Positions 10,604-60,619 of a stretch of DNA of 64,000 bases are shown in pieces; position 1 is the stretch's first letter, and each line of letters begins with the position of its first letter. A program made the position numbers and the translations under genes. The DNA comes from Naegleria gruberi. Its lineage: Eukaryota. A model generated the notes under the pieces. It saw nothing but the letters and a program-made list of their open reading frames with translations. It did no database searches and had not been told where the DNA came from. The stretch lies in assembly GCA_000004985.1 (NCBI GenBank), contig GG738907.1, one strand, 5' to 3'.

Positions 10604-11508
10604 TCAAAATTGCGCAGCAAGAAGATGTGTAAGCAGAAAGGATGAGGTTTATTCTACTTTCGGATGATCAAACACCCGCTGTTATGAGCAAACCTCCTCG
10701 AATGTTTCTTGTCTGGAAGGCAGATTATTGTTATGGTGTTTGATAGCGGGGCGGTCAGTTGGCTGTACTACACTATGCGATATGTCTTTGTCCATCTATT
10801 GATGCGAATTTGAATGGTGAAACAAGTTTATTAGAAACTAATCTTTTGAAGTTGTTCAATAGAGTAAGTTTAAAATTCGAAAACATACATATTATCCAAT
10901 GAAAATCAAAGTGTTTATTCCAATTCTAAAGAAAGGTTTCGAATATTAAATAAAGCAACATGCCATGTTAAATAATCTCCAAAACCTTGAAACTAATGGT
11001 AAACTGAGTTCATAAGTTGCCCATCAATTTAAGATGACACAAAGATATAAATGTCAAAGAATAATGAATAATACCATGTCGCCTCCTCAATTTCAACTAC
11101 AGTTTTATGTCAATAATCACAATTGACATTAGATTGGCAACTTTCCTTTTATTAATACAACAAAATGTTACAAGTTAGAAATAGTAGCTAACAAGTTGGA
11201 ATGTGTTTAAAATTCTCCTGAGTAGAGCCACTACCAACTCATCTCGAGCTTATCAATCTTTATCCTGTTGATAGTGTGTTACAATTGATCAATTCATATG
11301 ATTCATTCAATTGTAGATGATAATAATTGATAGAAATTTATTAGAGATGATCTGCAGACACTTGAATGGTTTGTGTTTACTGTCTTTTTCGTTATTCAAT
11401 TACTATCTGGTTCTCACGAGTTTGTTTTCATTCTGATCTTTGGAATATTCTCTGTTCGTTTGTACAACACATGTAGTTTGCAAACATGTGTGGAGAAACA
11501 AGTAGACT

Positions 11509-49237: not shown

Positions 49238-50592
49238 GTTGTATTTATAATGGTAATAACTGAAAAAAGATGGTTGTGTGTGTTTTCTTTTTGTTTTGAA
49301 TTTTAATGTGGGGACTGGTGATTTTGATGCTGTTGTTGCTGGATGCAATTTCAGTGACTCACAGATGGGTGTGTTGGTTGAGATGTTGCGATGGTTTTAG
49401 AAACAGTTAACAAACAAGGCAATTAGATGGGATCATGAAACTTTTTGAGCTATGGGTCTTCTCATGGCCAGATGGAAGATAAGTTCAATGGGACTTGAGT
49501 AACTTTACCTTCCTAACCGAGTTCTTGGATTCTTGGCTAATGAAAAGCTGGTATCTTGGACTATTAGAAATGTTCAACCAGGTTTGTGCTCAAAAGTCAA
49601 CAAAGCTAATTGGAAGTAAACTATTCGTTTCGAATAATCTGTATTATTTATTTTTGAGTCTTTTCTCAAGATCTTCTGCATCAGATGACATTACAGCATG
49701 CCAAGCAAATTTCAATAAATCCTTTCCATAATTCACAACAATATAATAAATGAGGAGAAGTTTCAAAATTAGTAAAATTGCAAAACGCAGGGCTGAAGAA
49801 AAGATTTCCTCCATCAATCCAGAGATAATTTCACGAATGTTTCCGATAAATGACAATTTTTCTTCTTTTTCTTCTTTTTCTTTAGGAATTTCTTTCTCTT
49901 GATCTGCTGGAATTTTCTTTTTGAAAAATTGGCGGGAAATTACATTATTTAATTGAAAATTATTTGTAGATTTAATTAATTGACCATGTGATGATGGCGA
50001 TGATAGGGGAAGCACTGATTTTGTAAATTTGCAATTCCACAACGGTTTTGTGTTAATGGAGGTAATAACTCGTTTCAACATTTTTTTTCTGAGCGGGAAT
50101 GAAATTTCAGCCAACTGGAAGGTTGCCACATAAAGGTCAATGGAGGATCTTGTTAAGTGTGAGAACACAAGACATAAAAAGAACAAAAAATGATATTGAT
50201 TTGTAGAAATGATGAGTTTAAGAGAGGATGTTTAGAAAGTTGAGAATTCCCAACTCTATTTGATATTGATTCAATCCCTTCAAATCAAATTCTTGGTATT
50301 TTGTAAAGTACAGAGAATCAAGACGCCATTTCGCTCGATTTATCTCTTAAATTACTGGTCATCTTTTAAAAATCACAAATTGGTTTATTTCAGATTTCAA
50401 TAATTAAATACAACTTTCACTCCATTTCATTGTATTATGAATTGTATATTTTGAATAGTGTTTCTTCAAAGTATTGTTGTTATTATTTTGGCGGGTTGTA
50501 GTTTTCAAAAATACACCATGTGTCACTTGACATTTAGAAAATTCCTTAAATACTGAACTGTTTTCGAGAAATGATTGAATCAAAACAAAAAA

Positions 50593-52473
50593 ATGAATCA
50601 AAACAATAGATTCCTAGTGTTTGCGCTTCTAGGTCTTACTTGCTTGATTAGCTTCATTCTTACTAGCTCTGTAGTTGAAGGTAGAAGAGCTGCAGTTGTG
50701 CGTAAAGTTGCAGCTGTCAAGAAGCAATTGACCTACAAGAAATGTGAATCTGTTGGTGACCCTCATTATCTTTCTTTCACTGGTCAACGTTTCGATCACA
50801 TGGGATTAGGTGATTATGTTCTTGCTCAATCATCTGACAATCAATTCACAGTCCATGTTAGAACTAGTAAGTGGGGAGGTGCTGCAGCTGTCAATTCCAA
50901 TGTTGCTGTCAGATTAGGTAAAGGCGAGGATGATACTTTCGAATATGATGTCGAACAAGATGTTTTTTACCTTTCTGGTGTTAAGGCAAGTTTGGGTGTC
51001 AATCAAAAGGTTTCTCTTGGAACTGGTGATGTTCAAAGAATCAACACAAACACTGCTGTAGTTTCTGGCTCAAATGGTATCAAGATGACCATGTCTTGGT
51101 ATCGTCATGCTGCTTGGAAGCAACAATTGGGTTCTGTTGGTTATATTTCAGTTGTCATTGATGCTCCAAGTGATATTACTTTCAATAAGGGTATGTGTCT
51201 TGGTGCTTCCGAAGCTTCTCAACAAGCCATTGATATTCTCCACAACCATGTCCAAAGAAGAATTGCTAGAAAGGCTGAACTCAAGAAGGCTACTCCAAAG
51301 AGATCTAGATCTGCTAGAAAGGTCTGTAAGAAGGCTGGTTTGAATAAGAAGCAAAATCCATTCGCTTGGAAGTCTTGTGTCAAGGATGCTATTCAATCTG
51401 GATCCAAGATTGGTTTGAAGATTGGTCAAAACATCAAGAAGGTCAAAGTTGCTGAAAAGAAGGTTTTGAAGAAGGAAATCAAGAAGAAGGCTAAGAAGAT
51501 TGTTCGTAAGGAAAAGAAGGCTATTGAAAAGGCAAAGAAGGAAGCTGACTTGTTGAAGAAGAAGGCCGATCAAGCTCAAAAGAAGGCAACTCAAAAGAGA
51601 GCCAAGTGTGCTAAACGTGCTTCAAGAAAGGCCAGACGTGCTGCTAGAAGAGCAAGACGTGCTGCCAAAAGACTTGCCAAGAAGAAGCAAATTCTCAAAA
51701 AGGTCAAGAAAACCATTAAGAGATCTGTTCGTACCAAGATTACTATTGTCAAGAACTGGAAGAAAATCATCAAGAAGGTTTTGAATGATAGAAAGAAGGC
51801 CCTCAGAGCTGCTAAGAAGGCAAGACAAGCTGCTAAGAAAGCTATTAAAGAAGCTTCAAGAAAGGCCAGAAAAATTGCTGAAGAAAAGAAGAGACAAGCT
51901 GAAGAATTGGCCAGAAAGCTCCAAAGAGATGCTGAAGCTGCTGCTAAGAAATTGAGAGATGCTGTTGAAGCTGCTGCTAGAAAGGCAAGAGAAGCTGCTG
52001 AAAGAGCTAGACAACAAGCTGAAAATGCTAAATTGGAAGCAACTCGTCGTGCTAGAGTAAAAGCTGCAAGATTGGCCAAGTTAGCTAGAGAAGCTGCTGA
52101 AAGAGCTGCCAAGCAACAAAGAGCTATCCTTGAACAAATCCAAAAGCTTGCTAAATTGGCTGCTATCAAAAAGGCTCAACAAGAAGCTGAAGCAAAGAAG
52201 AGAGCTGCTGAAGCATTGAGACTTGTTGAAGAAGCCAAGAGAAAGGCTGCTGAAGCTCTTGAACGTGCTAAGGCTGAAGCAACCAGAAGAGCCATTGAAA
52301 TTGCTGACAGATTAAGAAAGGCTGCTGAAAAGGCTGCTGAAGAAGCTGCTAAAAGAGTCAAGATGGTTGAAGAATTGAAGAAGAAAGCCCTTAAGGATGT
52401 TGAAAAGCAAGCTAGAAAGCTCCTTAATGGTGGTGTTTCCAAGGGAAAGACTGTATGTTTCAGACTTCCTTAA
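50593..52473 (+). CDS. Secreted VWD (von Willebrand type D) domain protein with a ~400-aa K/A/R/E-rich highly basic helical C-terminal region
   Basis: ATG at 50593, followed by a signal peptide. The VWD start CESVGDPHYLSFTGQRFDHMGLGDYVLAQ runs to ...KGMCLGASE. After that comes extreme low-complexity sequence, KKAKKIVRKEKKAIEKAKKEADLLKKKADQAQKKATQKRAKCAKRASRKARRAARRARRAAKR... Confidence 0.55.
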   Translation: MNQNNRFLVFALLGLTCLISFILTSSVVEGRRAAVVRKVAAVKKQLTYKKCESVGDPHYLSFTGQRFDHMGLGDYVLAQSSDNQFTVHVRTSKWGGAAAVNSNVAVRLGKGEDDTFEYDVEQDVFYLSGVKASLGVNQKVSLGTGDVQRINTNTAVVSGSNGIKMTMSWYRHAAWKQQLGSVGYISVVIDAPSDITFNKGMCLGASEASQQAIDILHNHVQRRIARKAELKKATPKRSRSARKVCKKAGLNKKQNPFAWKSCVKDAIQSGSKIGLKIGQNIKKVKVAEKKVLKKEIKKKAKKIVRKEKKAIEKAKKEADLLKKKADQAQKKATQKRAKCAKRASRKARRAARRARRAAKRLAKKKQILKKVKKTIKRSVRTKITIVKNWKKIIKKVLNDRKKALRAAKKARQAAKKAIKEASRKARKIAEEKKRQAEELARKLQRDAEAAAKKLRDAVEAAARKAREAAERARQQAENAKLEATRRARVKAARLAKLAREAAERAAKQQRAILEQIQKLAKLAAIKKAQQEAEAKKRAAEALRLVEEAKRKAAEALERAKAEATRRAIEIADRLRKAAEKAAEEAAKRVKMVEELKKKALKDVEKQARKLLNGGVSKGKTVCFRLP

Positions 52474-52858: not shown

Positions 52859-54378
52859 ATGTCTTTGAATATCAATAGTCATTCAGGATCAAGAAATCAC
52901 TCGCGTAATCCCTCACCAATGGTGCCACCAACTTCGATATTGAAGAAGGCTGTGATTCCTCCGAATAATTCGGCACAGAATAGTGTCACAATTAATATGT
53001 CAAAGAATGAAACAAAGAGTACAAGTTTTAAATGTTGTTGGTGCATGGATATTTTGAAAGAACCTATTCAATTATCGAGCACGTGTTCTCATTATGGATG
53101 TGCCAGATGTATCAATCTGTTATTGAATTTTGAAAAGTTGAAACGTTGTTGTGATAAATAGTTGAGAATAGGAAACCTTATGAGATACCATGTCCTTGTT
53201 GTCCCAATAGATTGTCATTGTTGTATGATAAGGTACATTCAGATCCTTCGGTATTTGAGCAGAACCAGGAGGGCTATTATTCTACATTTAACAGTGCTCG
53301 ATCAGATGGATTTGGCGGTGAAAAGATTAATCCTTACCTATTTACTCTTATTGATGAAGAGTTTAAATCACTCGCAGATGAGTATGGTAATACAGAATTG
53401 GAAGGTAGAATGTGTGCCAATTGCGAGACTACTCTAGCTACTTGCCAATGTGAAACATGTAAATTTATTCTTTGTGGTGAGTGTTTTGCCTCCATTCATG
53501 ACCAAAAGTTATTGAGCTCACACAAAAAGGCTGATCTAAGGCCTGGAAATTATATTCCTATTAATGAAAAATGTATGAAACATGGAAAGGATTTGGATTT
53601 ATTTTGTATGAACGATAATGAGAAAGTTTGCAGTTTATGTGCCATATCTGAAACTCACAAAAATCATCAGTGTATTCCTGTAAACGAGCATATTTCACAC
53701 TTACACGATGATTTGAGGGTTCAAGCTGAACATCTATTTGCAGATGATGATTCAGCCATTCATAATGAAATTAGTAATATTACCAGTTTTTTACAACATG
53801 CAAATGATTACTATGTACAGTCTAAGAATTTTATTGAGGAAAACTTTGGAAAAATTGAAGCAGCACTAAAAAAGAGAAAGGAAGGCTTGTTGAACACAGC
53901 TTTAAAAACTTACAAAAATCCCAACATGGAAGAAAAGGTTAAATTGCTGAAAACATTCTCCTTCTCTGGTTGGAGAGATTCTATTGCACGATTTTCACGA
54001 AAGCTCAATGAAGAAGACAAGATTAATCAAACATCTAAACGATTGGAATTCATTGAAAATCATCTCACCATTGATCACATGTTGAACTCGGGAGATATCA
54101 TACCTGGTAATAATTTGGAATCTAGTCAAGAAGATAATGCTTATTCCAGATCTCAAACACCAATGTTGGAGGATGGTATTGTTTCAGATATTATCAATAT
54201 GATTGAAATGATTACGATATCAAAAGATGAACATGCTCAAAATCAAGAAAATATCAAACATGATAAGAAATTCAAATCAATAATCGGAGACATGATGCAC
54301 CAAAATGAAAATTCAATACGAAAGTCCATTTCCATCACTTGTTTGAGCTCTAAAAAACGATTAGGATCTACGCAATAA
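52859..54378 (+). CDS. TRIM-like protein: RING finger, two B-box zinc fingers, coiled coil. The frame changes near 53150-53175 (intron or frameshift unresolved)
   Basis: ATG at 52859. RING CCWCMDILKEPIQLSSTCSHYGCARCI ... (next frame) PCPCCPNRL. B-box1 CANCETTLATCQCETCKFILCGECFASIHDQKLLSSH. B-box2 CMKHGKDLDLFCMNDNEKVCSLCAISETHKNH (CHC3H2). These are followed by coiled-coil segments. Confidence 0.5.
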
Positions 54379-54486: not shown

Positions 54487-55196
54487 CTAATAAAAGTTTT
54501 GATCGATTTGAGTTCCACAAATGTTTGTTGTTCCTTGGAATTGCTTAATGCTTGGGTGACTAAAAGATTTGAATTGTAAAAATACGAATTAAATAAAAAG
54601 AATACTTACCTCCATCCTCCAAAAGATTGGAAGTTATCAAATGATGCATTGTTATCATAGTAAGCCCACCATAATTGCAAATTGGAGAAGGCAGTAGAAC
54701 CACAAGTAATTGGTTGCCATTGAGAATGAGAAGAATAGATGTGAACTGGATAACCTGTAGCTCTACCAGCATTAACCATTCTAGAGATAAAGTTAACATT
54801 GGTTTGACAATTATTAGTCCAGTATTGAGGACCTTCAATATCGAGCCAAATTTGACCAAAGGTTGCACCATTACTCTTGATAAAGTTGACAGTATTTTGA
54901 ACTTGAGCAGCAGCATCTTCATTAATATTTGGGAAGATGTAAATATCAACATATTTAATACCAGCAGCCTTGGCACGATTGATGTCATTAGCAACATATG
55001 GATTGACACGTCCAGTTGATAATTGAGCTTGAATAATAGCAAATTCACGTCCAGATTGCTTTAAACAATTCCAAGAACTTTGAGAAACATCTCCTTGGAA
55101 ATACGACAAATCAAGACCCAATGTAGCATTGGCAACAGAGGCAGCAAATGCCATCATCAAAACCAAACCAACAATCACAGAGCAGTATCTCTTCAT
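54487..55196 (-). CDS. Secreted GH25 (Chalaropsis-type) lysozyme/muramidase in two exons: join(54487..54559,54610..55196)
   Basis: ATG (rc) at 55194-55196, followed by a signal peptide. The GH25 signature reads LGLDLSYFQGDVSQSSWNCLKQSGREFAIIQA...GIKYVDIYIF...IWLDIEGP. Donor AG|GTAAGTA at 54609. A 50-nt intron ends ttttag at 54560. A short 3' exon encodes SHPSIKQFQGTTNICGTQIDQNFY. Confidence 0.75.
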
Positions 55197-55791
55197 TTTT
55201 TTTAATTGTTAGTTGTTTGATTTGTAACATCAGATGATTGCTTTATTGCTTTTCATAAGATGATTGCAATCATGTTATCTTCCTGATGAAGATCAGCTGG
55301 CTGCCTCCAACAGACAAAAATTCAACTCATTGGACAACGATGATGATCATAAAAGTTTAATGTGGCTTGTTTTGTGTGGCGTTTAATGTCCTATCGGAAT
55401 GAATCCATTTGGTAGACAATTATTTTCGTTATAGTAATCAGGAATGATGGTTCCTTTCTCTTTACAAAGTTGCTGTTGTTAGCAAAGAAATAGGATTGTT
55501 CAATTCATTGTTTGGAAATTTCCAAGTTGTATTATTAAACGTTTTTGTTCATGTAATTAGCGCCATATTGACCGTTACATATTTTTTAAATATTCAAATT
55601 TTTTTAAAAAAACAATTTCAAACAAATAGGATGAAAAGGAATAATTGTATTATTGGCAATTTTGGCGGATGATAATAGTGCATACCCGTGATACTTTTCA
55701 GGTCCATACAACAAGTGGTGCAAAATTGGTTTAGATAGTGAATAAGTGGTAAAGTAATGGCAAAAAATTGGTGGAATTTTCAGAAAACAAA

Positions 55792-58700
55792 ATGTTCAAA
55801 GGCTCATACTACGAGAAGGTTCTTGATGAAGAGGAGAGTTTCAAACCAACAACAACACCATCATCACCATCAGAACAACATGAAGATGTAGATAGTACTT
55901 CTTCGGAGGAAAATAATATACTTCCACCAATGATATCATCTCCAATGGAAAAGAAGGAAAATATAACGGTTGATCGAATGGAAACAAAGGCTTGTTCGAA
56001 GGCTTGTTGTTCTTCATCATCATCATCGAAGGCTGGTTGCTCAGAGGAAGAAGAACAACACGAACATTCGGCAGTTAATAGTACTCACAAACATAGTAAA
56101 AGAGGAACGAAATCAAAGTTGATGTATGGAAAGAAGAAGATCAAAATTAGTCAACTGCAACATTTGACAAAACAACATGATGAACATCATCACGAAGAAG
56201 AAACGACGTCAGAAACAACAAACATTTGCGAGAAGTCAAGCTCTTCTAATTGTTGTTCTTATGGTTCTTGCTCAAAGGAAAAACAAAAAGAACCAAACAA
56301 TGCAATTGTTTCAGATTGCTGTTCTTCAGGTTCCTGTTCCAAGAAAAGCAATGTTCCAGTTGAGAAGAAATCAACATGTACTTCTGGTTGTTGCCAGTCA
56401 GTATCAACTTCCACTGAGAGCAGAACAGAATTGAAATTGGATAATTTACTTCCTAATCACAAGTCTCTGCATTTGACTGTGAGAAATTTGCATTGTGCTG
56501 ATTGTGCCAATATGGTTGAGGGAGTTTTAATTAAGAAGAATGGTATTCTGAATGCCAGAGTGAATAGTATGACAGATTCAGCTCATGTAGTATATGACGA
56601 ATTAATTATACAAGAAACATTAATTGTAAAATCAATTCAAGACCTTGGATTTCCAACTAGTGTCTCTCTATTGAAAAACATTTCAAATTCTGATCAGGAA
56701 ACTCTTACAACCATGTTCGAATTCAAACAGGAGTTACAAACACACAAAGTAGATGAATTAGTTAAGAGCATTGAAAAAGGGGATGGCATTATTCATACGG
56801 CCTATGATACATCGAGTTGTCTCCTCCAAGTGGCTTACAATCCTGATATTACAGGTACAAGAGATATTAAGAAAATGATTGAAACCATCGATTCGAGCCA
56901 TATGTTTACAATTATGAGTGGTAGTAAAGCTAACGAGATTACCGATCAGAACAATAAGAATGAAATCAAAATATGGAGGAGAAACCTTATTGTTTCCTTC
57001 ATTCTTAGTATTCCAGTCATATTTACAGCATTCATCTTTCCAATGATCAAACCAGTTGATGAATTTTTGAAGAAGGAATTCTTACAAGGCCTCAATAGTT
57101 ATATTCTTATTGGATTTATTTTCTCAACACCAATCCAATTTTATTTTGGAAGACCATTGTACATGTCAGCTTACAGAGCTCTACGATATGCAAAAAAGCC
57201 AAACATGGATACACTTGTAATGCTGTCAACTACCACTGCTTATGTTTACTCGTTAGTGAGTACAATAATTGCAATGTTTGTTGAGACTTACAAGGCCGAA
57301 GCATTCTTTGAAACTTCGGCACTCTTGTTGACATTTATCATTTTGGGAAGGTAGGTTTTCTTACTTGTTATTAATTTTATTTATAATTACTATTAAGGTT
57401 TTTGGAAATACTTGCCAAAGGACAAACTTCGAGCATACTTACTTCCATTTTGAAACTCAGATGCACCAAAGCTTTTTTGATATTCAGAGGAAACTATGAA
57501 AGAATAACATGTCAAACCGAACTTGTAAATAATTCACATGCTGTAGAGGAAGAGGAGATTGATACTGATCTTGTTCAAAGAGGCGACATTTTAAAATGCC
57601 TTCCAGGTTCAAAAATTCCAACTGATGGAGTAGTGTTTTATGGCACTACATCGATTGATGAATCAATGATTAGGTAAGTTTTGAACCATAATTTAATTTG
57701 ACATTATTCAACCATAATAGTGGTGAATCTATTCCAGTTAACAAGGATGTTGGAGATTTTGTTTATGGCAGTACAATCAATCAATTTGGAACAATCTATA
57801 TCCGTGTAACAAAAACTAGTTCTGAAAATACTCTTTCTTCAATTGACAAATTAATTCACGAATCTCAAAATGCTAAAGTACCCATTCAAAGAATTGCTGA
57901 TAATGTTAGTGCAGTGTTTGTACCTGTAATTATTGGTATTTCCTTATTGGCTTTTATTATTTGGATCAGTTTGTGTTATGCTGGAGTTTTGGAAACTGAC
58001 CTGCATCCAATCACCTTTGCTTTACAGTTCTCTCTTGCAATTTTGGTAATTAGTTGTCCTTGTGCTATTAGTTTGGCAGCTCCAACAGCTGTGATGGTCG
58101 GTATCGCCAAAGGTGTTGAGTATGGTGTACTATTCAAGAATGGTGCTGTAATTGAGATGTGCCACAAGGTTAACACAGTCATATTTGACAAGACTGGTAC
58201 CTTAACCAATGGAAAACCAGTTGTTACAGACGTGTTGCTTTTTGAGGGAGATGATTTGAAGCAATTCAAAGCAATTATAGGTTCTGCAGAGTTGGGAAGT
58301 GAACACGTTATTGGAAAGGCTATTTCAACACACGTAGAAAAGGAGGGAATAGCTATAGAACAACCTGTTGATTATCAAGCAGTTCCAGGAAAAGGATTAA
58401 AATGTACAGTCTATGGAAAACAAGTGATTGCAGGTAATTGCACTTGGATGAAGGACAATTCAATTGAAATTTCAGAAACACAACAAGAACAAATTTTAAC
58501 TTTGGAGAATCAAGGAAAGACAATTGTTCACGTTGCAATCGATGGTTCTTTACATGGAATTGTTGCCCTCTCTGATACTCTCAAGGTGGAATCCAAACGA
58601 GTTATTGATGAATTGAAGAAGAAGAATGTGGAAATTTGGGTGGTTAGTGGAGACAACCAAGTCACAACTAGATATATCGCCAACCAATTAGGCATTGAGA

Positions 58701-59155
58701 ATGTAATGGCCAATGTCCTTCCAGCCTACAAGAGAGAAAAAGTGCTTGAATTGCAACAAGGTAAAACTTCCAATGGTAAAAAGAGAGTTGTTGCAATGAT
58801 TGGAGATGGTATCAATGATTCACCATCTCTAGCCCAAGCAGATGTTGGTTTTGCAATTGGATGTGGTTCAGATATTGCCTTAGAAACTGCGGATATCATT
58901 TTGGTAAAGAGTGATTTGAGAGATGTGCTTGTGGCTTTGGATTTGTCAAGGACTACTTTCAGAAGAATCAAACTCAACTTTTTATGGGCCTTCCTTTATA
59001 ATGCTGTTGGTATTCCATTATCTGCTGGAGCATTCTATCCAATCCTTGGTATTGCAATTCCACCAGCTATTGCAGGATTATCTGAGATTTTCTCTTCCAT
59101 TCCTGTAATTCTCTTCTCCTTACTTTTGAAATTCTACAAACCAAAGATTTATTAA
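55792..59155 (+). CDS. P1B-type heavy-metal (Cu+-type) transporting ATPase in three exons: join(55792..57350,57398..57673,57721..59155)
   Basis: ATG at 55792. Two 47-nt introns (GTAGGT...ttaag and GTAAGT...ataatag) join in frame to give LGR|FLEILAKGQTS and MIR->TGESIPV. Motifs found: CPC (SCPCAISLAAPTAV), DKTGTLT, GDGINDSPSLAQADVGFAIG, and TGESIPV. The N-terminus has Cys-rich metal-binding-like clusters and an HMA-like fold carrying CADC instead of CxxC. Confidence 0.85.
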
Positions 59156-59306
59156 CAAAGAAATACAACACTTTTATTGTAAACTCACTGTCTGTTAAAG
59201 AGAATTGATCGCGCTAGGCTTAGTTGAGCTCAACTAACCTTTCTATTTTGATTGTAGTAATCTTGCGGTCCTGACATTGACTATTTGAAACGAAAAAAAC
59301 TAAACA

Positions 59307-60619
59307 ATGACCTCCACTATTTGTGAAGAAGAAACTAACCAAACGAATGTGGAGCAACAACTTTCAACTAGTAGTAGTATCAACAATACACCATTATCGG
59401 ATACTGTGGAAACAAATCAGGGTGCTAATATAGGAGAAACCAAAAAGATGGGAGAAACTAATCATGCAAACAAACGCAAGTCTCAAAATCAGCACAAAAG
59501 AGAAGAAACTCCAATAATATACAAGGTGAAAACACCGGAAATTATATTATTCAACTCTCCCAAGATGGTGCTGGAAAGGATGAAAGTAGATGGTATTCGA
59601 AAGTCCAAGCTAACGGTTGACCAAATAATAATCCTCTCCTTGTTTGCTGGTTTATTCATCGGATTGGCTTGTGCTATGGCCATATTGATTGGAGGAAACG
59701 TTCCAGACCTAGAAGAAAAAAACCCAGGTCTCCAGAAACTTCTCTCCGGTGCGTAAGTTTTTCACACTTTCATTTTCATTTCACACACGAGATTCGAATA
59801 GTGTTTTTCCTATTGGATTGATTCTTATAGCCATGACTGGTTCTGAATTGTTTACTGGTAACGTTTTGGTCTTGTTAGTTGCCTTGTTTTCAAGAAAATG
59901 GAGAGCCAAAAAGTTTCTTCTTCAGTAAGTGAAATAGTTTGAAATTAATAATTGAAATTTTCAAAGATATACACAATTTTCAAAGAATTTGTTCGTGAGC
60001 TACTTGTTCAATTGCTTGGGAGCATTTCTATTTGCCTACTTTTTCGTGTATTTACCACAACCTTGCTGCTCTGCTTATTGGATTAAATACATACAGAACA
60101 TGTCAGTTGCCAAAACGACAAAAACTTTTGGAAATTTAGTGTTATTGGCAATTATTTGTAACATGTTAGTGACTGTTTCTGTATTCTGCTGTAATGCAGC
60201 AACTACATTGGGAGGAAAATTTCTTGGCATTTGGTTTCCATTAATGACATTTGTTTGTTTAGGATTTGAACATAGCATTGCAAATGCTTTTTACATTCCT
60301 CTTGGCATGCTTGTAAGTAATTTTTCAATTAATTTATGAAAATTTATTGTAAACTCAATGTTAGTATGGAGCTAATGTAACAGGATATGATTTTCTTATT
60401 GGAAACTTACTACCTGTCACTATTGGAAATATAATTGGAGGAGCAATTATTAATGGATGTTTATTATATTATGTACATGATTTTAGAGTGAGACATCATA
60501 GAGCCATATTCAATTTTGCAGAGAAAATATGGGAAAAGATAAAGAAGAGGAAGGAAAATACAGAATCAAACACATCTTCATCTATTGAACTATCCGAAAG
60601 TAAAGAGAATATGGTCTAA
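59307..60619 (+). CDS. Formate/nitrite transporter (FNT) family channel in four exons: join(59307..59752,59802..59924,59967..60312,60365..60619)
   Basis: ATG at 59307. Introns of 49, 42 and 52 nt begin GTAAGT and end AG, and all junctions are phase-consistent. FNT signatures: AMTGSELFTGN, GFEHSIANAF, LLPVTIGNIIGG. Confidence 0.75.

What the first reader, a model, noticed from the sequence alone, without database searches (positions are those of the whole stretch)
54487..60619. Intron-containing GH25 lysozyme and FNT channel genes flanking a Cu-ATPase: bacterial/fungal-type families in a genome that also encodes TRIM-like and VWD proteins
Within about 6 kb lie three genes: a GH25 muramidase (54487-55196), a P1B-ATPase (55792-59155) and a formate/nitrite transporter (59307-60619). 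GH25 and FNT are typical of bacteria, fungi and some protists and are generally absent from animals. Yet the same window carries a RING/B-box/coiled-coil (TRIM-like) protein and a VWD protein, which are animal-typical. All three genes carry short canonical spliceosomal introns, so they are genuinely resident eukaryotic genes and not contamination. Either the source lineage naturally combines these families, or some were acquired horizontally and later gained introns.
Basis: partly seen in the sequence, partly recalled or inferred. Interest (0 to 1): 0.5.

Follow-up and report, generated by a model that had tools for sequence, protein, structure and literature searches.

The report
Three ordinary neighbouring Naegleria gruberi genes
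The window comes from the published genome of the bacteria-eating amoeba Naegleria gruberi, and the lysozyme, metal pump and formate/nitrite-type channel genes are normal, already annotated resident genes that sit side by side by chance, so there is no animal-versus-bacterial puzzle.

Summary
At exactly the stated coordinates lie a GH25 muramidase (1 intron), a P1B heavy-metal ATPase (2 introns) and a formate/nitrite transporter (FNT) family channel (3 introns). All six introns are 42-52 nt and GT..AG.

The source is Naegleria gruberi, a heterolobosean amoeboflagellate and not an animal. The genes are NAEGRDRAFT_73780, _81612 and _73782 on a 275-kb scaffold.

Codon usage and GC3 match the neighbouring genes. 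The three genes are not adjacent in N. fowleri or N. lovaniensis, so this is not a conserved cluster.

- **GH25:** it belongs to a eukaryote-dominated clade (Acrasis, Carpediemonas, Gloeochaete, Cavenderia). A 2026 preprint already describes a GH25 clade of bacterivorous eukaryotes that includes Discoba. Bacterial relatives are at most 38% identical and fall outside.
- **ATPase:** it is closest to plant HMA4 and animal ATP7B.
- **FNT:** it belongs to a family expanded in Naegleria and Willaertia, whose next relatives are bacterial FNT proteins. An ancient transfer is possible but not shown.

Small new points:
- The public GH25 model is truncated because it misses the intron.
- The ATPase belongs to a protist subfamily in which the Cu-ligand Met (MxxSS) is Glu and the HP motif is lost, so calling it a "Cu-ATPase" is uncertain.

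Verdict: ordinary, already known, low interest.

The parts
54610..55196 (-). GH25 muramidase, exon 1 (aa 1-195 plus 2 nt). It carries the signal peptide, D29 of the DxSxxQG motif and D119/E121 of the DxE motif. Gene NAEGRDRAFT_73780.
   Evidence: Fold confirmed.
54560..54609 (-). GH25 intron, 50 nt, GTAAGT..TTTTAG, phase 2. It holds an in-frame stop that truncates the public 196-aa model.
54487..54559 (-). GH25 exon 2. It encodes the conserved C-terminal strand SHPSIKQFQGTTNICGTQIDQNFY, including invariant D215, and is missing from the public model.
   Evidence: Alignment to 17 homologues. N. fowleri encodes the same segment after an intron.
55197..55791 (.). 595-bp intergenic region between the divergently transcribed GH25 and ATPase genes.
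   Evidence: Function not tested.
55792..57350 (+). P1B-ATPase exon 1: Cys/His-rich N-terminus, one HMA domain (LHCADC) and TM1-4. Gene NAEGRDRAFT_81612.
57351..57397 (+). ATPase intron 1, 47 nt, GTAGGT..AG.
   Evidence: Junction FIILGR|FLEILAKGQTS aligns without a gap to HMA4.
57398..57673 (+). ATPase exon 2 (start of the A-domain).
57674..57720 (+). ATPase intron 2, 47 nt, GTAAGT..AG.
   Evidence: Junction DESMI|SGESIP aligns to NESMITGEARP of HMA4.
57721..59155 (+). ATPase exon 3: SGE, SCPC (TM6), DKTGT, SEHV, GDGINDSP, YN (TM7) and SEIFSS (TM8).
59307..59752 (+). FNT exon 1: about 85-aa low-complexity N-terminal extension plus TM1. Gene NAEGRDRAFT_73782.
59753..59801 (+). FNT intron 1, 49 nt. 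The same position is occupied in the N. lovaniensis orthologue.
59802..59924 (+). FNT exon 2 (contains the ELFTGN motif with the conserved Thr).
59925..59966 (+). FNT intron 2, 42 nt. Absent from the N. lovaniensis orthologue.
59967..60312 (+). FNT exon 3 (conserved Lys in SVAKTTK and the central His in GFEHSIAN).
60313..60364 (+). FNT intron 3, 52 nt. The same position is occupied in the N. lovaniensis orthologue.
60365..60619 (+). FNT exon 4 (last TM plus about 45-aa C-terminal extension).
50575..52473 (+). Context: secreted VWD-domain protein with a long Lys/Ala-rich coiled tail.
53212..54378 (+). Context: protein with two B-box zinc fingers. A RING-like ORF lies upstream at 52859-53161 in another frame.

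Best explanation
The region holds three unrelated, resident, intron-bearing nuclear genes of the free-living amoeboflagellate Naegleria gruberi. They lie next to each other only because the genome is gene-dense.

1. **GH25.** A small secreted or lysosomal muramidase with a signal peptide and the full Asp/Asp-Glu/Asp active-site set. It most likely digests peptidoglycan of ingested bacteria (inferred). It belongs to a eukaryote-dominated GH25 clade.
2. **P1B ATPase.** A heavy-metal pump of the ATP7/HMA5 lineage that exports a soft metal from the cytosol using ATP. It probably pumps copper, but its metal site is atypical.
3. **FNT.** A formate/nitrite-transporter-family channel for small monovalent weak-acid anions (formate, nitrite, lactate or similar; the substrate is inferred only from the family). 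It is one of at least four N. gruberi paralogues of a family expanded in Naegleria and Willaertia.

None of the three is a recent bacterial acquisition, and the trio is not a functional cluster.
For: **Source**
- The GH25 is 100% identical to a N. gruberi protein from a 275,174-bp contig.
- The public ATPase, also 1089 aa, sits in the cluster whose representative is 100% identical to my model.
- The FNT model is an exact match to the public protein.
- The UniProt accessions are consecutive: D2VXK4, D2VXK5, D2VXK6.

**Families**
- Pfam and NCBIfam confirm the assignments.
- The GH25 AlphaFold model has pLDDT 93.8. Its top 18 Foldseek PDB hits are all GH25 lysozymes.

**Residency**
- Six short GT..AG introns. 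Two of the three FNT intron positions are shared with N. lovaniensis, and N. fowleri has a GH25 intron at nearly the same place.
- GC3 is 0.27, 0.29 and 0.32 against a neighbour mean of 0.294 (sd 0.040). Codon-usage likelihood is within the neighbour range.

**GH25 phylogeny**
- The closest named relatives are all eukaryotes: N. fowleri 70%, Acrasis 50%, Gloeochaete 50%, Carpediemonas 42-48%, Aduncisulcus 43%, Cavenderia 42%. One unnamed hit lies on a contig with eIF2B-epsilon-type domains (LbH_EIF2B, W2).
- Bacterial relatives are at most 38% identical. They form an outgroup with 100/100 bootstrap support.
- A preprint describes the same kind of eukaryotic bacterivore clade, including Discoba (10.64898/2026.07.07.735988).

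**ATPase**
- Rice HMA4 and ATP7B score 584-586 bits, against 396-474 bits for CopA.
- Naegleria, dictyostelid, animal and plant proteins head the database hits.

**No cluster**
- The N. fowleri GH25, the N. lovaniensis FNT and the ATPase orthologues of N. fowleri and N. lovaniensis each have different neighbours.
Against: - The FNT's nearest non-heterolobosean relatives are bacterial (40-47% identity, up to 232 bits). The Chlamydomonas LCIA scores 148 bits and Plasmodium FNT 97 bits. An old bacterial origin of that family therefore cannot be excluded.
- The trees are neighbour-joining on small, hit-biased samples. Most ingroup GH25 sequences are unnamed metagenome proteins.
- No expression or activity data were available.
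- The ATPase fails two classical Cu(+)-pump motifs, so its substrate is uncertain.
Confidence: 0.9

Rival explanations
1. Ancient horizontal transfer of the FNT. A bacterial formate-type channel gene entered an ancestor of Naegleria and Willaertia. It then gained introns and N- and C-terminal extensions and duplicated into the present family.
For: - In a 5.8-billion-protein search, every hit above 181 bits that is not heterolobosean is a prokaryote-sized (about 260 aa) protein. Those that carry names are bacterial: Elusimicrobia, Flavobacteriaceae, Muribaculaceae, Chloroflexi.
- One of them sits beside genes with 2Fe-2S, NADH-dehydrogenase 51K and molybdopterin-oxidoreductase domains, consistent with a formate dehydrogenase operon, in a bacterial genome.
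- The eukaryotic references score lower: LCIA 148 bits, PfFNT 97 bits.
- The heterolobosean clade is monophyletic at 95/100.
- Intron and signal-peptide gain after bacterial transfer is documented in the heterolobosean Acrasis (PMC11589745).
Against: - In the NJ tree rooted on PfFNT, the heterolobosean clade is sister to the sampled bacteria and not nested within them. Direction and timing are therefore unresolved.
- Sampling was limited to the top 120 hits.
- No compositional trace remains.
- Two introns are shared across Naegleria species, so any transfer is old.
Confidence: 0.45
2. Recent bacterial or fungal acquisition of the GH25 gene by Naegleria, followed by intron gain.
For: GH25 is mainly a bacterial, phage and fungal family and has been transferred between domains repeatedly (preprint text).
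Against: - Orthologues exist in N. fowleri and Acrasis, and the closest relatives come from several eukaryotic supergroups.
- The bacterial sequences are an outgroup at 100/100 bootstrap.
- Codon usage is native.
- The intron lies at nearly the same place in N. fowleri.
Confidence: 0.04
3. The three genes form a functional 'phagosome killing' module (lysozyme, metal-poisoning pump and anion channel), kept together and co-regulated from the shared 595-bp divergent promoter.
For: - GH25 and the ATPase are transcribed divergently.
- Amoebae and macrophages recruit ATP7A-type pumps to phagosomes (PMC5770829).
- Naegleria phagosomes are reported to use several lysozymes (PMC9928731).
Against: - The adjacency is not conserved. 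In N. fowleri and N. lovaniensis the ATPase lies between DTW/glutaredoxin and DUF1242/Spt5 genes.
- The N. fowleri GH25 lies between an unannotated 1719-aa gene (with an F-box gene beyond it) and Arf and peptidase S10 genes.
- The N. lovaniensis FNT lies between kinase and LETM1 genes.
- Short intergenic spacers are the rule across the whole window.
Confidence: 0.05
4. Bacterial contamination of the assembly.
For: None beyond the family names.
Against: - Spliceosomal introns are present in all three genes.
- GC and codon usage are uniform across the window.
- The flanking genes are eukaryotic: kelch/BTB, RagA, P450, B-box.
- The genes lie on a 275-kb scaffold.
Confidence: 0.01

Closest known systems
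Eukaryotic bacterivore GH25 lysozymes (the 'second major clade' of the TvGH25 preprint 10.64898/2026.07.07.735988: Metamonada, Discoba, Amoebozoa, Stramenopiles, fungi and some invertebrates), such as Acrasis kona 'GH family lysozyme' and Cavenderia fasciculata GH25
   Same: - About 215 aa, a signal peptide and a single GH25 domain.
- 42-50% identity.
- Shared clade motifs QLWYAHYD and FGGWSxPxIKQY.
- The same active-site Asp/Asp-Glu/Asp.
   Different: Nothing of substance. The public N. gruberi model is simply truncated by a missed intron.
Solved GH25 muramidases (Aspergillus fumigatus 2X8R, Streptomyces coelicolor cellosyl 1JFX, phage Cpl-1, phiSM101 endolysin)
   Same: The same barrel fold (TM 0.6-0.77) and the same DxE motif.
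   Different: Only 14-25% identity. phmmer finds none of them. There are no cell-wall-binding modules.
ATP7A/ATP7B, plant HMA4/HMA5 and CopA (P1B-1 Cu(+)-ATPases)
   Same: - Eight-TM P1B architecture, an HMA domain, CPC in TM6, YN in TM7 and DKTGT.
- 584-586 bits to HMA4 and ATP7B.
- Passes TIGR01511.
   Different: - The TM8 Met of MxxSS is Glu.
- SEHP is SEHV, TGE is SGE and ACPC is SCPC.
- There is a single HMA domain with CADC, plus CC-rich and His-rich N-terminal repeats.
- These changes are shared with the closest relatives (14 carry the TM8 Glu) and are absent from the 103 further hits that carry Met.
- It is a different paralogue from the characterised N. fowleri Nf-CuATPase (PMC7578549).
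Bacterial FNT proteins found next to likely formate dehydrogenase genes, and Chlamydomonas NAR1/LCIA (9V2A), PfFNT (6VQQ), FocA, NirC and HSC
   Same: The Form_Nir_trans core, with the conserved Thr (ELFTGN), Lys and central His (FEHSIAN).
   Different: - Eukaryote-style N- and C-terminal extensions and three introns.
- Below the NCBIfam cut-offs for FocA and NirC, so it is not an orthologue of any characterised member.
- The substrate is unknown.

Membership tests
Glycoside hydrolase family 25 (muramidase) | Sequence match to the family profile above the curated threshold | tested here: met
   PF01183, 65.7 bits against a cut-off of 27, covering profile positions 2-179 of 180.
Glycoside hydrolase family 25 (muramidase) | GH25 barrel fold | tested here: met
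   AlphaFold model with pLDDT 93.8. The top 18 Foldseek PDB hits are all GH25 lysozymes, with TM up to 0.77.
Glycoside hydrolase family 25 (muramidase) | Active-site acidic residues: N-terminal Asp, the DxE pair and a C-terminal Asp | tested here: met
   D29, D119 and E121 are invariant in the 18-sequence alignment. D215 is invariant in the 8-sequence alignment. D215 is present only in the spliced model. The equivalence to Cpl-1 D10/D92/E94/D182 is from memory.
Glycoside hydrolase family 25 (muramidase) | Muramidase activity on peptidoglycan | not testable with these tools
   Needs a biochemical assay.
P1B-1 Cu(+)-transporting ATPase | P-type core (DKTGT, HAD and A-domains) and a heavy-metal subfamily profile | tested here: met
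   Pfam E1-E2_ATPase, Hydrolase and HMA. TIGR01525 scores 575 bits against 346. TIGR01511 (IB1_Cu) scores 514 bits against 397.
P1B-1 Cu(+)-transporting ATPase | CPC in TM6 and YN in TM7 | tested here: met
   SCPC at residue 724 and FLYNAVGIP.
P1B-1 Cu(+)-transporting ATPase | MxxSS in TM8 (Met as metal ligand) | tested here: not met
   GLSEIFSS: Glu replaces Met. The same holds in 14 closest relatives, against Met in 103 other hits.
P1B-1 Cu(+)-transporting ATPase | SEHP (His-Pro) motif of the nucleotide-binding domain | tested here: not met
   SEHV here. Most relatives in the subfamily have SEH followed by L, I, V, A or S.
P1B-1 Cu(+)-transporting ATPase | N-terminal HMA domain with CxxC | tested here: met
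   One HMA domain at residues 228-287 with CADC. The GMTCxxC context is replaced by LHCxDC.
Formate/nitrite transporter (FNT) family | Match to the family profile | tested here: met
   PF01226, 230 bits against 34.6, over the full profile length. The prokaryote-trained TIGR00790 gives 194 bits, below its cut-off of 232.
Formate/nitrite transporter (FNT) family | Conserved pore residues: Thr of ELFTGN, vestibule Lys and central His of (F/Y)EH | tested here: met
   All three align to LCIA and PfFNT.
FocA, NirC or HSC orthologue (defined substrate) | Score above the equivalog cut-off | tested here: not met
   TIGR04060 FocA scores 129 against 290. NirC scores 81 against 293. The substrate cannot be assigned.
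TRIM (RING, B-box, coiled-coil) for the neighbouring gene | RING finger N-terminal to the B-box in one polypeptide | tested here: inconclusive
   Two B-boxes are confirmed. The RING-like Cys/His ORF is in another frame with no usable intron. zf-RING_6 gives E = 0.015, below threshold.
Recent prokaryote-to-eukaryote HGT | Nested in a bacterial clade, and/or atypical composition, and/or absent from sister species | tested here: not met
   - GH25: bacteria form an outgroup at 100/100.
- ATPase: highest scores are to plant HMA4 and animal ATP7B.
- FNT: sister to bacteria, not nested within them.
- Composition is native.
- Orthologues exist in other Naegleria species.

The most novel reading that the evidence does not exclude
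The 'Cu-ATPase' represents an unrecognised protist subfamily of P1B pumps found in Naegleria species, the dictyostelid Acytostelium and unnamed environmental eukaryotes.

In this subfamily the transmembrane Cu(+)-ligand Met is replaced by Glu. From memory of the published signature motifs, this is the position where Zn/Cd/Pb pumps carry Asp. The His-Pro motif is also lost, and the N-terminus carries CC/His-rich repeats and a CxDC site.

Together these features imply a transported metal or mechanism different from ATP7-type copper pumps. Separately, the heterolobosean FNT family may descend from an old bacterial transfer.
Probability: 0.3. Interest if true: 0.4.

Novelty: already known. Interest (0 to 1): 0.12.

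Why it matters
It matters little. The region is part of the published Naegleria gruberi genome. All three genes are annotated there, and the presence of 'bacterial-type' lysozymes and FNT channels in phagotrophic protists is established.

Three modest by-products remain:
- **A corrected GH25 gene model.** The public protein lacks the last exon and with it an active-site Asp. The N. fowleri model is mis-spliced at the same place.
- **A pointer to the FNT family.** The four-member heterolobosean FNT family has bacterial nearest relatives and has not been studied.
- **A caveat on the metal pump.** This pump and its close relatives deviate from canonical copper pumps at metal-site motifs. That is relevant to work on copper handling in the pathogen N. 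fowleri.

Tried and rejected
- **Look-ups that failed.** The public 196-aa model had no gene position on record.
- **phmmer of GH25 against PDB.** It found nothing real. The fold search was needed instead.
- **Apparent annotation gap (false).** The ATPase and FNT first seemed absent from the public N. gruberi proteome, because their 90% clusters are represented by short ENA fragments. The cluster look-ups showed that both are annotated, the FNT identically to my model and the ATPase at the same length. I therefore dropped the idea of unannotated genes.
- **Genome-contig scan.** The 18-sequence alignment was too divergent to seed it. A narrower alignment worked, but the scan is motif-limited and so not an exhaustive census of bacterial GH25.
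- **Conserved three-gene cluster.** Rejected for lack of synteny.
- **Compositional signal of transfer.** None found.
- **Joining the RING-like ORF to the B-box ORF.** No canonical intron does it. The only GT..AG candidates are 16-27 nt long and give the wrong frame.
- **Literature.** The 2010 genome paper is not held in the library. No paper on Naegleria FNTs was found.

Full report
**1. What is there**

I rebuilt the three gene models by hand from the six-frame translations.

- **GH25 (minus strand).** Exons 55196..54610 and 54559..54487, 219 aa. The single intron is 50 nt (GTAAGT..TTTTAG), is phase 2 and contains an in-frame stop.
- **ATPase (plus strand).** Exons 55792..57350, 57398..57673 and 57721..59155, 1089 aa, with two 47-nt introns.
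- **FNT (plus strand).** Exons 59307..59752, 59802..59924, 59967..60312 and 60365..60619, 389 aa, with introns of 49, 42 and 52 nt.

Formal domain searches confirm the families.
- Pfam: Glyco_hydro_25 at 65.7 bits (cut-off 27). E1-E2_ATPase, HAD Hydrolase and HMA in the ATPase. Form_Nir_trans at 230 bits (cut-off 34.6).
- The ATPase also passes the NCBIfam heavy-metal model (575 bits) and copper-subfamily model (514 bits against 397).
- The GH25 protein finds no solved structure by sequence. Its AlphaFold model is confident (pLDDT 93.8), and the 18 best Foldseek matches in the PDB are all GH25 lysozymes.
- The active-site residues D29, D119 and E121 are invariant among homologues in both alignments. 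D215 is invariant in the 8-sequence alignment.

**2. Where the window comes from**

- The GH25 protein is 100% identical to a 'predicted protein' of Naegleria gruberi on a 275,174-bp contig.
- Cluster look-ups link the other two models to public N. gruberi proteins. The FNT model is an exact match to XP_002671200 / D2VXK6, NAEGRDRAFT_73782. XP_002671199 / D2VXK5, NAEGRDRAFT_81612, also 1089 aa, sits in the cluster whose representative is 100% identical to my ATPase model.
- The GH25 is XP_002671268 / D2VXK4, NAEGRDRAFT_73780.

The source is therefore a heterolobosean amoeboflagellate that feeds on bacteria, not an animal or an animal-like lineage. The rest of the window is typical of a gene-dense protist genome: about 34% GC throughout, with kelch/BTB, LRR, P450, RagA, cofilin and enoyl-CoA hydratase genes.

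The RING that would make the latter 'TRIM-like' is weaker. It sits in a separate upstream ORF in another frame, with no usable intron to join them, and reaches only E = 0.015.

**3. Are the introns real and the genes resident?**

Yes, on four lines of evidence.
- Every intron breaks the frame. After removal, the protein aligns without a gap across the junction to homologues. ATPase against rice HMA4. FNT against Chlamydomonas LCIA and PfFNT. GH25 against 17 homologues.
- The FNT model is identical to the public gene model, and the ATPase model matches the public one in length.
- FNT introns 1 and 3 occupy the same positions in the N. lovaniensis orthologue. N. fowleri has a GH25 intron within a few codons of the N. 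gruberi one. The introns therefore predate the separation of Naegleria species.
- GC3 (0.273, 0.291, 0.315) and synonymous codon choice fall inside the range of 27 neighbouring ORFs, whose GC3 mean is 0.294 with sd 0.040.

Contamination is excluded.

**4. Origin of each gene**

*GH25*
- All named close relatives are eukaryotes from several supergroups: N. fowleri (70%), Acrasis kona (50%), the glaucophyte Gloeochaete (50%), Carpediemonas (42-48%), Aduncisulcus (43%), Cavenderia (42%) and 'Eukaryota sp. GEM-RC1'.
- An unnamed 676-aa hit lies on a contig with eIF2B-epsilon-type domains (LbH_EIF2B, W2).
- A motif-seeded scan of 185,579 prokaryotic species genomes found relatives of 22-31% identity in Myxococcota, Acidobacteriota, Gemmatimonadota and proteobacterial MAGs. 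A single Streptomyces reached 38%.
- In a neighbour-joining tree, the bacterial sequences other than that Streptomyces form an outgroup. They are separated from the eukaryote-dominated group in 100 of 100 bootstraps. Naegleria is never sister to a bacterium.
- A Naegleria pangenome paper reports a large arsenal of lysozymes in the genus, up to six genes in N. lovaniensis (PMC9928731).

The GH25 is therefore an expected digestive or antibacterial enzyme of this lineage.

*ATPase*
- The best solved relatives are rice HMA4 and vertebrate ATP7B (584-586 bits), well above archaeal and bacterial CopA (396-474 bits).
- Database hits run from Naegleria species through Acytostelium, corals, orchids and mammals before prokaryotes appear.
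- This is the ordinary eukaryotic P1B lineage.

*FNT*
- The window's gene is the N. gruberi member of a well-supported clade (95/100) with N. lovaniensis, N. fowleri and Willaertia proteins. N. gruberi has at least three further paralogues.
- The next-best hits, at 40-47% identity and up to 232 bits, are about 260-aa prokaryote-sized proteins. The named ones are bacterial. One sits beside genes with 2Fe-2S, NADH-dehydrogenase 51K and molybdopterin-oxidoreductase domains, consistent with a formate dehydrogenase operon.
- Characterised eukaryotic FNTs score lower: LCIA 148 bits and PfFNT 97 bits. FocA, HSC and NirC score 67-87 bits.
- In my tree the heterolobosean clade is sister to the sampled bacteria, not nested within them.
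- An old bacterial origin of the family is therefore plausible (about 45%) but undemonstrated. If it happened, it predates the common ancestor of Naegleria and Willaertia.
- Bacterial genes that later gained introns and signal peptides are already documented in the heterolobosean Acrasis (PMC11589745), so the phenomenon would not be new.

**5. Is the trio a unit?**

No.
- In N. fowleri the GH25 lies between an unannotated 1719-aa gene (with an F-box gene beyond it) and Arf and peptidase S10 genes.
- The N. lovaniensis FNT lies between a kinase gene and a LETM1 gene.
- In both N. fowleri and N. lovaniensis the ATPase orthologue lies between DTW/glutaredoxin and DUF1242/Spt5 genes.

The adjacency is specific to N. 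gruberi and is best read as chance in a compact genome.

**6. How each most likely works (inferred from family knowledge)**

- **GH25.** It has a hydrophobic N-terminal signal sequence and no extra modules. It would be delivered to phagolysosomes or secreted, and would cleave the MurNAc-GlcNAc bond of peptidoglycan using the Asp/Glu pair.
- **ATPase.** It would bind metal at cytosolic Cys-rich sites and the HMA domain. It would then move the metal through the CPC site across a membrane at the cost of ATP (DKTGT phosphorylation), for detoxification or for loading a compartment.
- **FNT.** It keeps the Thr, Lys and His pore residues. It would conduct a small weak-acid anion together with a proton. 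It is below the equivalog thresholds for FocA and NirC, so the substrate is open.

**7. Things that are slightly new**

(a) *GH25 gene model.* The public model (196 aa) reads through the intron to a stop. It lacks the last 24 residues, including the D215 conserved in close relatives and the strand conserved across the clade. The spliced 219-aa protein is not in the 15-billion-protein collection. The N. fowleri model is mis-spliced at the equivalent point.

(b) *Atypical ATPase.* The ATPase departs from the canonical Cu(+) signature in several ways:
- The TM8 Met of MxxSS is Glu.
- SEHP is SEHV, TGE is SGE and ACPC is SCPC.
- The single HMA domain reads LHCADC.
- The N-terminus carries CCSxGSCSK-like and His-rich repeats.

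The TM8 Glu is found in the 14 closest relatives (Naegleria species, Acytostelium and unnamed environmental proteins), most of which also share the SCPC and SEHx changes. It is found in none of the 103 further hits, which carry Met. It is a different paralogue from the copper-induced N. fowleri Nf-CuATPase (1330 aa, five CXXC motifs, GDGINDAP; PMC7578549). From memory of the published P1B signature motifs, the Glu occupies the position where Zn/Cd/Pb pumps have the Asp of DxG. Metal specificity should therefore be regarded as untested.

**8. Verdict**

The interpretation as an odd mixture of animal-type and bacterial-type genes dissolves once the source is known. The genes are annotated members of known families in a published genome, they are native in composition, and they have orthologues in sister species. 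Interest is low. The only lead of any novelty is the atypical metal-pump subfamily.

Noticed in passing
window 55792-59155 (TM8 near 59070-59100): The P1B-ATPase has Glu in place of the Cu-ligand Met (GLSEIFSS), SEHV for SEHP, SGE for TGE and SCPC for ACPC. It has a single HMA domain with LHCADC and CC/His-rich N-terminal repeats. The TM8 Glu is shared by 14 close relatives (Naegleria species, Acytostelium, unnamed environmental proteins), most of which also share the other motif changes, and is absent from 103 other hits. It is a different paralogue from the studied N. fowleri Cu-ATPase.
   Followed up: partly
window 54487-54609: The public N. gruberi GH25 model (XP_002671268, 196 aa) misses the 50-nt intron and the last exon, which encodes the conserved C-terminal strand and D215. 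The spliced 219-aa protein is absent from the protein collection.
   Followed up: yes
L001 10001-11034 (N. fowleri VFQX01000035.1): The N. fowleri GH25 model FDP41_003945 appears mis-spliced at its last intron. The conserved GWTRPSIKQYQGTTNICGTSIDENFY is encoded in frame at 10875-10952 but is not in the annotated protein. This gene also has an extra intron after VEGPQ that N. gruberi lacks.
   Followed up: partly
window 52859-53211: A RING-like Cys/His ORF (52859-53161) ends in a stop 50 nt before the B-box ORF, which is in another frame. The last Cys pair of the putative RING (PCPCC) is in the B-box frame. No canonical intron of normal length joins the two, which suggests a 1-nt assembly error, an unusual splice or a decaying gene.
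   Followed up: partly
window 50575-52473: A secreted VWD-domain protein is followed by about 400 residues of extremely Lys/Ala/Arg/Glu-rich predicted coiled coil. This is an unusual architecture for a VWD protein outside animals.
   Followed up: no
L003 1001-1570 (Streptomyces sp. NPDC058291): A single Streptomyces genome encodes a GH25 that is 38% identical to the Naegleria enzyme. It nests among eukaryotic (dictyostelid-like) GH25s in the NJ tree, which could reflect eukaryote-to-bacterium transfer or contamination.
   Followed up: no
L002 10001-11631 against window 59307-60619: Intron turnover in the FNT orthologues. Two positions are shared between N. gruberi and N. lovaniensis, one is specific to N. 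gruberi (aa 189/190) and one is specific to N. lovaniensis (aa 120/121).
   Followed up: yes
N. gruberi paralogue P0094 (XP_002678644, another scaffold): A fourth N. gruberi FNT is of prokaryote-like length (263 aa) and only 42% identical to the window's copy. It does not group reliably with the main heterolobosean clade (34/100), so it may have a separate origin.
   Followed up: partly
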